From: a virus
Taxonomy: Duplodnaviria; Caudoviricetes
DNA: 50,906 bases
Direction: 5' to 3' (one strand)
Virus record (IMG/VR): IMGVR_UViG_3300005253_000221
Coordinates: 1-50,906 of that record
The position numbers and the translations under genes were made by a program. The notes beneath the pieces were generated by a model, which was not told the DNA's origin, did not search any database, and was given only the letters and a program-made list of their open reading frames with translations. This document shows, in pieces, positions 38,848-42,439 of this stretch (its first letter is position 1; each line of letters starts with the position of its first letter).

Positions 38848-39006
38848 ATGACAGACCAAGAACTCATAGACAACGGCACGATATGCCGCATAACTCAACA
38901 TTACTGGGCAACAGGTGACGGGAAGCACTATCATTGTGACCCATATCGGTATTGCATGACCTGTGGCCTTGTCGAAGAGCAGACCTGGACCAAGGTGGCC
39001 AGATGA
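38848..39006 (+). CDS. Small Cys/His protein
   Basis: 52 aa with GGAG RBS and CMTC; ATGA-coupled to the ligase gene. Confidence 0.55.
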   Translation: MTDQELIDNGTICRITQHYWATGDGKHYHCDPYRYCMTCGLVEEQTWTKVAR

Positions 39007-39539
39007 TCGAGTTCCAAAAGTTTCCAAAGATACCCAGATACAAGCGCACTGTCATCGTGACCGAGAAGATCGACGGCACCAATGCGCAGATTTTTATCGG
39101 CGAGGATGGCCAAATTCTGATCGGTAGCCGGAATCGGTGGATTTCAACAGAAGATGATAATTATGGATTCGCAGATTGGGTCCGTGGACACGAATATGAA
39201 CTTCTGAAGCTCGGACCTGGTCGCCACTTCGGCGAATGGTGGGGCAGCGGAATTCAGCGCGGTTATGGCCTCGACCACAAGCGCTTCAGCCTGTTCAACG
39301 TAGGCCGGTGGAAAGAGCCCGCTACCCTACCCGAGCGCGTACATGTCGTTCCGATCTTGTGGCAGGGACAGGTTGAAGATCTGAATGTCCCCCACCTTAT
39401 GGCGAAATTGAAACTGGGCGGCAGTTGGGCAGCACCCGGGTTCTATAATCCAGAGGGAATCGTCGTCTATCACACTGCGGCGAAGCAGTGCTTCAAAGTG
39501 ACATATGACCACGACGAAAAAGGGAAAGAAAGCCTATGA
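39003..39539 (+). CDS. RNA ligase (Rnl2-like nucleotidyltransferase domain)
   Basis: FPKIPR, motif I EKIDGTN, SRNR, GEWWG, FSLFN, motif IV EGIVV and FK; 178 aa. Confidence 0.85.
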   Translation: MIEFQKFPKIPRYKRTVIVTEKIDGTNAQIFIGEDGQILIGSRNRWISTEDDNYGFADWVRGHEYELLKLGPGRHFGEWWGSGIQRGYGLDHKRFSLFNVGRWKEPATLPERVHVVPILWQGQVEDLNVPHLMAKLKLGGSWAAPGFYNPEGIVVYHTAAKQCFKVTYDHDEKGKESL

Positions 39540-40671: not shown

Positions 40672-40886
40672 TGGTGATATACAAGGGAAGACCGCTACAC
40701 GAGTTCTCCAGGTGGGAGCTATTGTCGTTTGCCGAGAATATGGCGTCTATGCATATGCTAAGGCAGGACATAGTAGACCGGCTGGAGGCAGATGGCATAG
40801 ACCTAGTGGCGGACGACGTTGATGAAAAAGCCTTTAAACATTTTTCAAAGAGCATTAAGTGCTTACGCTCTTTGAAAAGTGAATAG
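40671..40886 (+). CDS. Hypothetical protein
   Basis: 71 aa; 3' end lies in the tandem duplication. Confidence 0.55.
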   Translation: MVIYKGRPLHEFSRWELLSFAENMASMHMLRQDIVDRLEADGIDLVADDVDEKAFKHFSKSIKCLRSLKSE

Positions 40887-41063
40887 CCTGGGAGCCCATT
40901 GGCGACCCAGGTGCGCGGGAGTAGCTCAGTGGTAGAGCATCACGTAAGCCTTTAAACATTTTTCAAAGAGCATTAAGTGCTTACGCTCTTTGAAAAGTGA
41001 ATAGCCTGGGAGCCCGTTGGCGACCCAGGTGCGCGGGAGTAGCTCAGTGGTAGAGTATCACGT
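40828..41063 (+). repeat. 118-bp tandem duplication (40828..40945 and 40946..41063), 2 mismatches
   Basis: Each unit has a TTTTCAAAGAGC/GCTCTTTGAAAA hairpin, a CCTGGG/CCCAGG hairpin and the 5' half of tRNA-Gly. Confidence 0.95.
40915..40945 (+). pseudogene. 5' half of tRNA-Gly
   Basis: GCGGGAGTAGCTCAGTGGTAGAGCATCACGT, truncated in the anticodon loop. Confidence 0.85.
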
Positions 41064-41104
41064 TGCCAACGTGATTGTCGCCGGTTCGAGTCCGGCCTCC
41101 CGCT
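41033..41104 (+). tRNA. tRNA-Gly(GCC)
   Basis: GCGGGAG/CTCCCGC acceptor, TCACG-TTGCCAA-CGTGA anticodon arm, TTCGAGT T-loop, U73; CCA not encoded. Confidence 0.95.
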
Positions 41105-41108
41105 TTAT

Positions 41109-41231
41109 GCGGGTTCATCTTGTGGTGTATTCGGTAGCACACGCGCCTTCGCGGGACCTGGGCTCGAAACCCAGGCAAGGTTAAGAGCAAGCATGGTCGT
41201 GCAGCCCACGGTGAGTTTGTGCAGAACCCGT
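41109..41231 (+). ncRNA. tRNA-like RNA 1 (shrunken anticodon arm, extra 3' hairpin, outer closing stem)
   Basis: D arm GTGT-ATTCGGTA-GCAC, mini arm CGCG-CCTT-CGCG, T arm CTGGG-CTCGAAA-CCCAG, acceptor-like ATCTTG/CAAGGT, all enclosed by GCGGGTTC/GAACCCGT. Confidence 0.65.
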
Positions 41232-41235
41232 TTTT

Positions 41236-41315
41236 GGTGAAGTAGCTCAGTCCGGCAGAGCACAGGGGAACGTCGAGAGGCGCCCTGGTCGCTGGTTCGA
41301 CTCCAGCCTTCACCC
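41236..41315 (+). ncRNA. tRNA-like RNA 2 (anticodon loop replaced by a GNRA-capped helix)
   Basis: Perfect GGTGAAG/CTTCACC acceptor, D arm, and GCTGG-TTCGACT-CCAGC T arm; anticodon arm reads CAGGG-GAA-CGTC-GAGA-GGCG-CCCTG. Confidence 0.8.
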
Positions 41316-41317
41316 TT

Positions 41318-41389
41318 GGACCGGTCGTCTAACGGTTAGGATGCGCGCCTCTCAAGCGCGCGATGGGAGTTCAATTCTCCCCCGGTTCA
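41318..41389 (+). tRNA. tRNA-Glu(CTC)
   Basis: GGACCGG/CCGGTTC acceptor, CGCGC-CTCTCAA-GCGCG anticodon arm, GGGAG-TTCAATT-CTCCC T arm. Confidence 0.92.
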
Positions 41390-41391
41390 TA

Positions 41392-41417
41392 CGTGGGTTC
41401 GATTCCCACCGTCGTCT
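41392..41417 (+). pseudogene. 3' tRNA remnant (T arm plus acceptor strand)
   Basis: GTGGG-TTCGATT-CCCAC-CGTCGTC with no 5' half. Confidence 0.7.
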
Positions 41418-41421
41418 TTAC

Positions 41422-41493
41422 AGACCCATCTTCTAACGGTTAGGATACTAGGTTTTCACCCTGGTGACGGGAGTTCAATTCTCCCTGGGTCTA
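41422..41493 (+). tRNA. tRNA-Glu(TTC)
   Basis: AGACCCA/TGGGTCT acceptor, CTAGG-TTTTCAC-CCTGG anticodon arm. Confidence 0.92.
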
Positions 41494-41495
41494 TT

Positions 41496-41570
41496 GTGGC
41501 CATAGTGTAATTGGCAGCACGGCAGGTTGTGATCCTGTCGGTGTGGGTTCAAGTCCCACTGGTCACCCCA
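41496..41570 (+). tRNA. tRNA-His(GTG)
   Basis: GTGGCCA/TGGTCAC acceptor, GCAGG-TTGTGAT-CCTGT anticodon arm, C73, encoded CCA; T at position -1. Confidence 0.93.
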
Positions 41571-41682
41571 TTTCGTAGAGGAACTGTTGTAGCACTGCGG
41601 CGCTAAAAGCTACGGCAATCAGAGCGATAATCTGTCCTTCTGCCGTAGCCAGGCGGCCCATTTTTCGTTTCGGGGGTGCGCA

Positions 41683-41952
41683 ATGTCACGGTCTTTTAAG
41701 AAGTTCTGCTTCTTCACCATATCCAAACCATGGTATCGCTCCAACGAGAAAGCACTGCGCCGTAAGGTAAAGCAGGCATGCCACGAGGTAGAGATTGACT
41801 TCGATCCCGACCAGGACTGGATAGACCTGCAGGCCACACACAAGGAGGGAGCCGATTGGGGAACCAAGTATGGGTATCCTGTGAAACCAAATCCCGATGA
41901 CTCAGTATGGGGCGATGACTATAACTGGTACACGAAAGGATTGAGGAAGTAA
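41683..41952 (+). CDS. Hypothetical protein (basic N-terminus)
   Basis: 89 aa MSRSFKK...LRRKVKQ. Confidence 0.65.
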   Translation: MSRSFKKFCFFTISKPWYRSNEKALRRKVKQACHEVEIDFDPDQDWIDLQATHKEGADWGTKYGYPVKPNPDDSVWGDDYNWYTKGLRK

Positions 41953-41953
41953 C

Positions 41954-42439
41954 ATGGGATTCTGGGCGAGGATGTTCGAGTTAGTATCTCAGCTCAAGTG
42001 GGCTGAGTCCACGCACCATAACGAAGCAGCTGTTAGACTTAGGTTCGGTAGGTATACCGCGACGTTGGAGCCCGGGTTACACTGGCGCGTGCCCTTTGTC
42101 CACACAATAATTACGTGCGTCAAGAAAGAGAATACCGTGTACCTCCCCACTCAGGTCATCAACGGTACAGCATTTGCCGCTGTATTCCGCTATGAAGTGG
42201 AGGACGCGTTTCTGGCGTTGCTGGAAACTGAGGACTACAACGAGTCCATAACGTCCTTCGCCATGGGTCAGCTGGGAGATCGTATGCTGATAGCAGATGA
42301 CGTGTCAACGGTTGAAATGATGAACGACATCTCTGAAGACGTGCGGTTGGAAGCCAAGGGGTGGGGGCTCCATCTCATTGAATTAAAATTAGCGACTTAC
42401 ACCGATGCTCGGGCGTTCCGGCTGTTGGGTGACGGGTAA
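41954..42439 (+). CDS. SPFH/band 7 domain protein
   Basis: AVRLRFGRY..TLEPGLHWRVPF, FRYEVED, GWGLHL. Confidence 0.8.
   Translation: MGFWARMFELVSQLKWAESTHHNEAAVRLRFGRYTATLEPGLHWRVPFVHTIITCVKKENTVYLPTQVINGTAFAAVFRYEVEDAFLALLETEDYNESITSFAMGQLGDRMLIADDVSTVEMMNDISEDVRLEAKGWGLHLIELKLATYTDARAFRLLGDG

What the first reader, a model, noticed from the sequence alone, without database searches (positions are those of the whole stretch)
41236..41315. Anticodon-less tRNA mimic: anticodon loop replaced by a bulged helix with a GNRA tetraloop
Seen: the acceptor stem (7/7 Watson-Crick), D arm and T arm (TTCGA) are intact. The 5-bp anticodon stem continues through a GAA bulge into CGTC-GAGA-GGCG, so nothing can decode. 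A decayed pseudogene would not be expected to gain a stable GNRA cap while keeping a perfect elbow. Inference: a dedicated tRNA-shaped RNA immune to anticodon nucleases. It could be a decoy for host tRNA-targeting defence toxins that act on the acceptor end or elbow, or a modulator of synthetases, RelA or EF-Tu. It is not permuted like YrlA and lacks the G3-U70 pair of tmRNA.
Basis: partly seen in the sequence, partly recalled or inferred. Interest (0 to 1): 0.85.

Follow-up and report, generated by a model that had tools for sequence, protein, structure and literature searches.

The report
Disabled tRNA copy in phage array
A tRNA-shaped gene in a marine-sediment phage has a small hairpin where its anticodon should be; the hairpin mirrors the neighbouring tRNA's anticodon arm and related phages carry similar broken copies, so fast tRNA gene turnover explains it better than a purpose-built decoy.

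Summary
Window 41236-41315 is a tRNA-derived gene (Rfam tRNA 45.1 bits against a cut-off of 29; ARAGORN misses it). All 21 stem pairs are intact and the D and T loops are canonical. A 15-nt anticodon loop folds as GAA bulge, 4 bp and GAGA, so it cannot decode.

The argument that a pseudogene would not gain a GNRA cap is weak. With the stem fixed, 17-25% of random or shuffled loops fold as stably. GAGAGGCGC (41275-41283) is also the exact reverse complement of the adjacent tRNA-Glu(CUC) anticodon arm (P about 0.005 in shuffles), which suggests an inverted templated insertion.

I found no homologue, so covariation cannot be tested. The same slot in related phages holds 13 tRNA-type genes, and 7 have abnormal anticodon regions (+8, +11, +23, -1, arm lost). 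The lesions differ from one another. tRNA fragments and a 118-nt duplication ending in an anticodon stem lie alongside.

Best reading (0.5): a recently disabled, still co-transcribed tRNA copy in a fast-turnover small-RNA slot. A selected non-decoding tRNA mimic remains possible (0.3), because bodies stay intact and one relative carries only such genes.

The parts
41236..41315 (+). tRNA-derived gene that cannot decode (the finding). Acceptor 41236-41242/41308-41314; D arm 41245-41261; anticodon stem 41263-41267/41283-41287; T arm 41291-41307; discriminator C at 41315.
   Evidence: Rfam tRNA 45.1 bits; my own tRNA model R1 44.1 bits; segment table; fold.
41268..41282 (+). 15-nt loop in place of the 7-nt anticodon loop: GAA bulge 41268-41270, helix 41271-41274/41279-41282 (one U-G pair), GAGA loop 41275-41278.
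   Evidence: No position gives a Y32-U33-NNN-R37 loop. ARAGORN's forced 8-nt 'intron' leaves GAAGGCG.
41275..41283 (+). GAGAGGCGC, the exact reverse complement of 41345-41353 in tRNA-Glu(CUC).
   Evidence: A match of 9 nt or more to any canonical anticodon arm, on either strand, occurs in 0.49% of 20,000 loop shuffles and 0.75% of random G+C-rich loops, and in 0.53% of 4,000 shuffles against six arms.
41288..41290 (+). Variable loop of only 3 nt (GUC).
   Evidence: Rfam alignment shows one deleted variable-loop position.
41345..41353 (+). Positions 28-36 of tRNA-Glu(CUC): stem GCGC, then C32, U33 and anticodon CUC. Probable template, or pairing partner, of the candidate's cap.
41033..41104 (+). 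tRNA-Gly(GCC), canonical, first full gene of the array.
   Evidence: ARAGORN; Rfam 71.4 bits.
41317..41390 (+). tRNA-Glu(CUC), canonical. It starts 2 nt after the candidate's discriminator.
41392..41421 (+). Remnant of a tRNA 3' part: a T arm (41393-41409) followed by CGTCGTC and TTT.
   Evidence: R1 partial hit, model positions 47-64; repeat D3, 88% like the tRNA-His T arm.
41422..41493 (+). tRNA-Glu(UUC), canonical.
41496..41570 (+). tRNA-His(GUG), canonical. CCA is encoded and the base at -1 is T.
40828..41063 (+). Two tandem copies of 118 nt (98% alike). Each holds a hairpin, a leader and the 5' part of tRNA-Gly. The first copy breaks off inside the anticodon stem (truncated tRNA-Gly at 40915-40945).
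   Evidence: the repeat finder D1, I2, I3; R1 24.4 bits at 40915-40987. Logan contigs break here, and an alternative form is seen in 3 runs.
41640..41665 (+). Terminator-like hairpin and T run closing the small-RNA slot. Its motif is conserved in relatives just before the homologue of the 404-aa protein.
38952..39539 (+). RNA ligase gene 1.5 kb upstream of the array (context only).
   Evidence: PF09414 54.7 bits; phrog_548. Absent from 5 of 5 relatives' records, 4 of them estimated at less than 90% complete.

Best explanation
The element is a tRNA gene copy that lost decoding when its anticodon loop was rebuilt. A net 8 extra nucleotides are present, and at least 9 of the loop-region nucleotides are an inverted copy of the anticodon arm of the tRNA-Glu(CUC) gene 75 nt downstream. 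A copy of a hairpin folds as a hairpin, so the 'GNRA cap' (GAGA) is simply the complement of U33 plus the anticodon CUC.

The gene sits in a small-RNA slot: hairpin and leader, tRNA genes, terminator-like hairpin, then the late structural genes. Its tRNA content turns over quickly in this phage group.

Shown: it is tRNA-derived, it cannot decode, it lies 2 nt from a canonical tRNA, and the slot holds fragments and a duplication that ends in an anticodon stem.

Inferred: it is still transcribed with its neighbours and cut by RNase P, because its acceptor, D and T parts are intact. The lesion is recent. The RNA has no job of its own.
For: 1. No canonical loop can be read from the 15 nt, and the variable loop is also short at 3 nt, which is a second departure from a working tRNA.
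2. The cap is not beyond chance as a structure: 24.6% of shuffles and 17.0% of random loops fold as stably.
3. The 9-nt exact reverse complement to the adjacent tRNA-Glu(CUC) arm has P about 0.005-0.0075. The test was chosen after seeing the match.
4. Turnover is visible in the window itself: a 118-nt tandem duplication that ends in the tRNA-Gly anticodon stem, a truncated tRNA-Gly, and a T-arm remnant. An alternative form of the slot appears in 3 of 4 runs and matches relative L223.
5. The slot in relatives shows a continuum. Six genes are canonical, five have loop or arm lesions, two are doubtful or decaying (L005, L014), and there are further fragments. The lesions are all different: +8, +11 with a local repeat of TTCA(T)GA, +23, a 6-nt loop that keeps GCCAACG of tRNA-Gly(GCC), and a lost arm.
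6. No homologue keeps the helix. There were 0 exact 25-mer hits, 2 and 7 hits to looser patterns that were all normal tRNAs, and the best phage BLAST hit is a normal tRNA-Ile at 75.9%.
Against: All 21 stem pairs and the elbow nucleotides are intact, and the sequence shows no listed difference across 4 runs from 3 studies. A long-dead gene should show mismatches.

In six of the seven abnormal elements of the group, every acceptor, D and T pair is kept (96 of 96, 8 of them G-U).

Abnormal anticodon regions are much more frequent here (7 of 13) than in 131 control loci. There, 1 of 207 default ARAGORN calls was undetermined, and 6 intron-mode calls had an insert of 5 nt or more; I judged 3 of those 6, by length and isotype only, to be long-arm tRNAs.

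One relative, 92% complete, has only two tRNA-type genes and both are abnormal.

Three insert-bearing elements share a 5' bulge with the 3' strand continuous, an arrangement seen in 4-5% of random loops each.

The 9-mer test was post hoc.
Confidence: 0.5

Rival explanations
1. A selected, non-decoding tRNA mimic. The tRNA body (acceptor, elbow) is kept by selection while the anticodon is deliberately absent. The RNA would be made and trimmed like a tRNA. It would then occupy host factors that recognise the tRNA body, such as tRNA-targeting defence enzymes acting on the acceptor end or elbow, processing or modification enzymes, or synthetases. It would be immune to anticodon-loop cleavage.
For: Bodies are intact in 6 of 7 abnormal elements (96 of 96 acceptor, D and T pairs). 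There is strong enrichment over controls. Relative L223 carries only abnormal tRNA-type genes, in two IMG/VR records and in reads of 3 runs. Three elements share a 5'-bulge arrangement. The same slot in L009 also holds a near-threshold abiF-RNA-like motif (35.8 bits, cut-off 37) with no Abi_2 protein in that partial record. This fits a slot for counter-defence RNAs, since abiF-motif RNA neutralises AbiF toxin (PMC12373285, abstract read). Phage tRNAs are known to counter host tRNA nucleases (PMC10264068, abstract and one passage; PMC11464382 and PMC11555353, listing abstracts only).
Against: No conserved structure or sequence is shared by the inserts. There is no homologue of the candidate. 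Its cap has a mutational explanation. The variable loop is shortened. Part of the 'intact body' argument is circular, because a tRNA with one stem mismatch still counts as canonical in my tally. Known phage counter-measures are decoding-competent replacement tRNAs, not decoys. A nuclease that reads the anticodon loop would not bind a capped helix.
Confidence: 0.3
2. An antisense or codon mimic of its neighbour. The loop shows GAG(A), the codon read by the adjacent tRNA-Glu(CUC), and 9 nt can pair with positions 28-36 of that tRNA. The element would bind or shield the tRNA-Glu anticodon loop, or steer folding of the two-tRNA precursor.
For: Exact 9-nt complementarity centred on the anticodon. 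The two genes are 2 nt apart and so lie on one precursor.
Against: Five of the nine nucleotides are locked in helices on both partners. The two-gene transcript folds as two separate cloverleaves at the minimum free energy. From recalled structural knowledge, a GNRA loop is poorly available for pairing. The other insert-bearing elements show no such complementarity (P 0.47-0.81).
Confidence: 0.07
3. A tRNA with a short intron that is cut out to give a working tRNA.
For: ARAGORN with introns allowed returns tRNA-Pro(agg) with an 8-nt intron. An RNA ligase gene lies 1.5 kb upstream.
Against: The product loop GAAGGCG has A33 and C37. The bulge lies on the 5' strand next to the stem, whereas a canonical archaeal bulge-helix-bulge needs the 3'-strand bulge there (motif recalled; geometry reasoned). 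There is no splicing endonuclease gene in the phage (PF01974, 0 hits). The tRNAs look bacterial: tRNA-Gly has U73 (rule recalled), and the D arm is shared with bacterial genomes only, among the 120 rows shown. Eight nucleotides is far too short for a group I intron. Relatives with inserts lack the ligase.
Confidence: 0.03

Closest known systems
tRNA pseudogenes and undetermined tRNA-like calls in phage tRNA arrays
   Same: tRNA-derived, sits in an array of working tRNAs, anticodon unreadable, missed or flagged by tRNA finders.
   Different: All stems and the elbow are still perfect. The lesion is a hairpin that mirrors the neighbour's anticodon arm. The phage group shows an unusually high share of such copies (7 of 13).
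Phage tRNAs with altered anticodon loops that escape host tRNA nucleases (van den Berg et al. 2023, PMC10264068; T5 tRNA-Lys against PARIS, PMC11464382; T5 tRNA-Tyr against a retron, PMC11555353)
   Same: Phage-encoded tRNA genes whose anticodon arm differs from the host's, in the setting of host nucleases that cut anticodon loops.
   Different: Those tRNAs still decode and replace the cleaved host tRNA. This element has no anticodon. I saw only abstracts, plus one passage of PMC10264068.
Stable RNAs 'species 1' and 'species 2' of the phage T4 tRNA cluster (recalled; not found in my searches, one search failed)
   Same: Small non-decoding RNAs encoded among phage tRNA genes and processed with them, with unknown function.
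   Different: As I recall, they are longer and not a full cloverleaf. I could make no sequence comparison.
Engineered tRNA scaffolds and natural tRNA-like RNAs such as mascRNA, YrlA and viral 3' tRNA-like structures (recalled, except for the Rfam scores)
   Same: A tRNA body carrying something other than an anticodon loop; processed by tRNA enzymes.
   Different: No family match. YrlA scores 21.3 bits against 69. The Tymo_tRNA-like hit at 23.4 bits (cut-off 40) lies at 41324-41405 on tRNA-Glu, not on the candidate.
Template-switch (quasi-palindrome) mutations at hairpins (recalled mechanism)
   Same: A short inverted copy of nearby hairpin DNA appears inside another hairpin.
   Different: Donor and recipient are two different tRNA genes 75 nt apart. 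Only a 9-nt exact stretch is shared, and the flanks do not match.

Membership tests
tRNA (Rfam RF00005) | Score at or above the curated gathering score over the full model | tested here: met
   45.1 bits against 29, model positions 1-71.
tRNA (working adaptor) | 7-nt anticodon loop with U33 and a purine at 37 | tested here: not met
   15-nt loop GAACGUCGAGAGGCG. No sub-window fits. The forced excision gives GAAGGCG.
tRNA (working adaptor) | Acceptor, D and T stems paired; G18 G19; T loop UUCRA | tested here: met
   7/7, 4/4 and 5/5 pairs; D loop AGUCCGGCA; T loop UUCGACU.
tRNA (working adaptor) | Variable loop of 4-5 nt (class I) | tested here: not met
   3 nt (GUC); one model position deleted.
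tRNA pseudogene (neutral relic) | Loss of decoding | tested here: met
   As above.
tRNA pseudogene (neutral relic) | Unconstrained change elsewhere (stem mismatches, lost elbow) | tested here: not met
   21 of 21 stem pairs kept. This is compatible only with a recent lesion.
tRNA pseudogene (neutral relic) | Lesion not conserved in orthologues | not testable with these tools
   No orthologue found.
Intron-containing tRNA (bulge-helix-bulge type) | Two 3-nt bulges on opposite strands 4 bp apart (or bulge-helix-loop) in the right orientation; a canonical loop after excision | tested here: not met
   The single bulge is on the 5' strand beside the stem. The product lacks U33. Motif definition recalled.
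Intron-containing tRNA (bulge-helix-bulge type) | Splicing endonuclease available | tested here: inconclusive
   None in the phage (PF01974). The host is unknown but looks bacterial.
tmRNA | G3-U70, tag reading frame, detection by ARAGORN or Rfam | tested here: not met
   U3-A70; no tmRNA call; only a 12.5-bit fragment hit at 41393-41409.
YrlA / Y RNA-like | Rfam RF02553 at the gathering score; permuted tRNA-like module | tested here: not met
   21.3 bits against 69, spanning the candidate's T arm and the D arm of tRNA-Glu.
   No homologue was found. Analogous elements in relatives carry unrelated inserts.

The most novel reading that the evidence does not exclude
This uncultivated marine-sediment phage group keeps a class of tRNA-shaped RNAs whose anticodon has been disabled in various ways (capped helix, long hairpin, shortened loop, lost arm) while the acceptor, D and T parts stay under selection. 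They would be expressed from a dedicated small-RNA slot, next to working tRNAs and an antitoxin-like RNA, and would act as uncleavable stand-ins that soak up host factors that recognise the tRNA body, such as tRNA-directed defence enzymes.
Probability: 0.3. Interest if true: 0.8.

Novelty: new member of a known kind. Interest (0 to 1): 0.45.

Why it matters
If it is a relic, it is a clean example of how phage tRNA arrays decay and rearrange. Anticodon stem-loops act as breakpoints here: a duplication ends in one, and an inverted copy of one sits inside another.

It is also a warning for annotation. Covariance models score this gene as a good tRNA although it cannot decode.

If the rival is right, phages would have a new kind of counter-measure in the tRNA arms race: tRNA bodies without anticodons. 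The unusually high share of such genes in this phage group (7 of 13) makes that directly testable.

Tried and rejected
**Homologue searches**
- The exact 25-mer of the remodelled arm in viral contigs gave 0 hits.
- An acceptor-anchored pattern gave 2 loci, both normal tRNAs: Met(CAU) and Phe(GAA).
Among 125 such tRNAs the isotypes were mixed (Lys, Thr, Ala and others), so no ancestor isotype can be named.
- A tRNA-Glu(CUC) pattern meant to find the same array elsewhere gave 0 hits.
- A pattern for L009_2 and a pattern for the leader found only their own contigs.
- BLAST of the 80-mer against phage records gave 191 records at E up to 1, all ordinary tRNA similarity. The two kinds I opened were normal tRNAs: ZPAH1 Ile, and SenALZ1 Met.

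**Family and gene searches**
- Rfam at E up to 1 over 40800-41700 showed nothing but tRNA for the candidate.
- There is no copy of the 15-mer elsewhere in the window, and CGAGAGG is not enriched. I recalled that CGAGAGG also occurs in the 23S sarcin-ricin loop. Given a GNRA hairpin this is weak, so I dropped it.
- The antisense ORF 41044-41313 (89 aa) has no PHROG match.
- The phage has no integrase, so an att-site origin is unsupported. It also has no CCA-adding enzyme and no Thg1.
- RNA ligase as part of a splicing pair is rejected, because it is absent from 5 of 5 relatives' records. Four of those records are estimated at less than 90% complete.

**Expression and other blanks**
- No RNA holder was listed among the runs, so nothing can be said on expression.
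- Contigs leave 40952-40995 uncovered. This part repeats 40834-40877, so I draw no conclusion from it.
- The spacer 41105-41235 and the leader 41571-41682 are no more stable than shuffles.
- RNAalifold on the conserved block downstream of the slot in relatives gave only 13 pairs. I did not follow this further.
Supplements of papers were not opened.
- Literature searches found no report of anticodon-less phage tRNA mimics. This covers only the held library and those terms.

**Rows left out**
- From I left out L011, L012, L016, L032 and L057 because they are the same contigs as L003, L004, L006, L008 and L007.
- L224 equals L223 in the slot and is counted once.
- L046 (tRNA-His-like, 47.4 bits) lies outside the slot in a more distant relative and is not in the tally of 13.

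Full report
**What the window is.** The window is a whole virus record of 50,906 bp, rated 100% complete by CheckV. It has a phage gene set: family A DNA polymerase, a primase-helicase-like protein, a RecG-like helicase, large terminase, portal and a protease. No integrase was found. Public runs that hold this stretch are labelled marine sediment metagenomes. The tRNAs look bacterial. tRNA-Gly has U73 (rule recalled), and the candidate's D arm recurs only in bacterial genomes among the 120 rows shown.

**The observation.** ARAGORN finds four tRNAs at 41033-41570: Gly GCC, Glu CUC, Glu UUC and His GUG. It finds nothing at 41236-41315. Rfam's tRNA model does match 41236-41315 over its full length at 45.1 bits, with 15 nt where the 7-nt loop belongs and one variable-loop position missing. 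The segment table shows 7/7, 4/4, 5/5 and 5/5 Watson-Crick pairs, canonical D and T loops, discriminator C and a 3-nt variable loop. RNAfold gives the cloverleaf with GAA bulge, CGUC/GGCG (one U-G pair) and a GAGA loop. No 7-nt reading with U33 and a purine at 37 exists. ARAGORN's forced 8-nt 'intron' leaves GAAGGCG. The stretch is real DNA: contigs from 4 runs of 3 studies cover it with no listed difference.

**Is the capped helix more than chance?** I kept the 5-bp stem and replaced the loop. 24.6% of 20,000 shuffles and 17.0% of 20,000 random 15-mers folded at least as stably, and 9-23% gained four or more extra pairs. Only the exact design (3-nt bulge, 4 bp, GNRA) is rare, at 0.06-0.09%, and that design was defined after seeing it. 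So a stable extra hairpin is no argument against decay.

**Where the cap may come from.** GAGAGGCGC at 41275-41283 covers the tetraloop, the 3' strand of the extra helix and the first stem base. It is the exact reverse complement of 41345-41353, which are positions 28-36 of the adjacent tRNA-Glu(CUC): stem GCGC, C32, U33 and anticodon CUC. A match of 9 nt or more to any of the four canonical anticodon arms, on either strand, occurs in 0.49% of loop shuffles and 0.75% of random G+C-rich loops, and in 0.53% against six arms. The test is post hoc but has a small, natural target set.
- The simplest reading is an inverted templated insertion from the neighbour 75 nt away. A copy of a hairpin folds as a hairpin, and 'GAGA' is the complement of U33-C34-U35-C36.
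- The alternative is that the element is an antisense or codon mimic of tRNA-Glu(CUC). This is weakened because most of the nine bases are helical in both partners, and the two-gene transcript folds as two cloverleaves.

**No homologue.** Exact and degenerate searches of IMG/VR found nothing that shares the remodelled arm. BLAST against phage records gives only generic tRNA similarity, at best a normal tRNA-Ile(GAU) at 75.9%. Covariation in the extra helix therefore cannot be tested.

**The slot and its relatives.** Terminase relatives came to 8 viral loci, plus 80 kept of 152 confirmed metagenome loci. Relatives of the 404-aa protein added two more viral records. The closest phages share one arrangement: a hairpin and leader, then tRNA-type genes, then a terminator-like hairpin, then the homologue of the 404-aa protein. 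I searched 84 sources (689,776 bases) with a tRNA model of my own, then L223 and L224, together with ARAGORN and Rfam. The slot of seven phages holds 13 full-length tRNA-type genes.
- Six are canonical: the window's four, L004 Ile GAU and L009 Ile UAU.
- Seven are not:
  - the candidate, with a 15-nt loop;
  - L009 5146-5241, with a 30-nt loop and T loop UCCGAGU;
  - L223 2602-2683, with an 18-nt loop that starts with a canonical UUCAUGA followed by 11 nt that partly repeat it;
  - L223 2740-2812, with a 6-nt loop that keeps GCCAACG of tRNA-Gly(GCC);
  - L003 969-1030, with the anticodon arm replaced by a 12-nt linker;
  - L005 3198-3268, with loop AGCGAUU and G at position 33, which ARAGORN calls Ser;
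  - L014 199-270, with three stem mismatches, found only by my model.

The L223 record, 92% complete, has only its two abnormal genes. In 131 control loci (901,305 bases), 1 of 207 ARAGORN calls was undetermined. Six intron-mode calls had an insert of 5 nt or more, and I judged three of them, by length and isotype only, to be long-arm tRNAs.

**Weighing the two main readings.**
- For a relic:
  - The lesions are all different.
  - One looks like a local duplication and another like a small deletion.
  - The candidate's lesion looks like an inverted copy.
  - The window's slot also holds a T-arm remnant, a truncated tRNA-Gly and a 118-nt tandem duplication that ends inside an anticodon stem.
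  - An alternative slot form matching L223 coexists in the same runs.
  - The candidate also has a shortened variable loop.
- For a selected mimic:
  - Six of the seven abnormal elements keep every acceptor, D and T pair (96 of 96).
  - The enrichment over controls is large.
  - Three insert-bearing arms share a 5' bulge with a continuous 3' strand, an arrangement seen in 4-5% of random loops each.
  - L009's slot also carries an abiF-RNA-like motif just under threshold, without an Abi_2 gene in that partial record. abiF-motif RNA is known to neutralise AbiF toxin (PMC12373285, abstract).
- Part of the 'intact body' argument is circular, because a tRNA with a single stem mismatch still counts as canonical in my tally.
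- My odds are 0.5 for a relic, 0.3 for a selected non-decoding mimic, 0.07 for an antisense or codon mimic, and 0.03 for an intron.

**Intron and other families.**
- The bulge is on the wrong strand for a bulge-helix-bulge site (motif recalled), and the product loop is not canonical.
- The phage has no splicing endonuclease.
- The RNA ligase at 38952-39539 is absent from the five relatives' records searched, including L223 and L009, which carry insert-bearing elements.
- tmRNA, YrlA and viral tRNA-like structures all fail their Rfam thresholds.

**Verdict.** Its argument for a dedicated decoy does not survive the controls, and the cap has a likely mutational source next door. The finding worth following is at the level of the phage group: an accessory small-RNA slot in which more than half of the tRNA-type genes have lost a readable anticodon but kept the tRNA body.

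Noticed in passing
window 40828-41063: A 118-nt tandem duplication (98% alike) holding a hairpin, a leader and the 5' part of tRNA-Gly. The first copy ends inside the anticodon stem. Logan contigs break here, and 3 of 4 runs show another form (40933 joined to 41079 with 166 other letters between) that matches relative L223.
   Followed up: partly
window 41392-41421: A stranded tRNA 3' part (T arm 41393-41409 plus CGTCGTC and TTT) between the two tRNA-Glu genes. A similar T-arm remnant follows the second tRNA-type gene of L223 (about 2815-2850).
   Followed up: partly
window 41496-41570: tRNA-His(GUG) has C73 and an encoded CCA, but T at position -1, so G-1 is not encoded. No Thg1-like gene is in the phage. 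The other tRNAs of the array do not encode CCA.
   Followed up: partly
window 38952-39539: A 195-aa RNA ligase (PF09414, phrog_548) 1.5 kb upstream of the tRNA array, a possible tRNA repair function. It is absent from 5 of 5 relatives' records, 4 of them estimated at less than 90% complete.
   Followed up: partly
L009 5088-5140: An abiF-RNA-like motif (35.8 bits, gathering score 37, E 0.007) between a canonical tRNA-Ile and the tRNA-like element with the 30-nt loop. No Abi_2 protein is in that 21.7-kb record, which is 45% complete. It could be a phage-borne mimic of an antitoxin RNA.
   Followed up: partly
L223 2602-2683 and 2740-2812 (the same in L224): A 92%-complete relative carries only two tRNA-type genes, both with the acceptor stem of the window's tRNA-Gly and both with abnormal anticodon loops (18 nt and 6 nt).
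   Followed up: yes
L003 1031-1175, L004 3205-3345, L009 5242-5400, L014 296-440, L005 3362-3470: A conserved block downstream of the tRNA slot (ATAAAT.GGAA ... AACCCCAAAACC) flanked by complementary arms that differ between phages. There is no Rfam match. RNAalifold gave 13 pairs, 6 with compensatory change. It may be an undescribed small RNA or leader, and I did not recognise it in the window.
   Followed up: partly
window 41640-41665: A terminator-like hairpin with a T run whose core (CCGTAGCCAGGCGG) is conserved in L003, L004 and L014 just before the late structural genes. The tRNA slot therefore looks like its own short transcription unit.
   Followed up: partly
window 41683-42439: Two genes (an 89-aa ORF and an SPFH/Band 7 protein) lie between the slot and the 404-aa protein. 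In the closest relatives the 404-aa homologue follows the slot directly, so these two look like further cargo.
   Followed up: no
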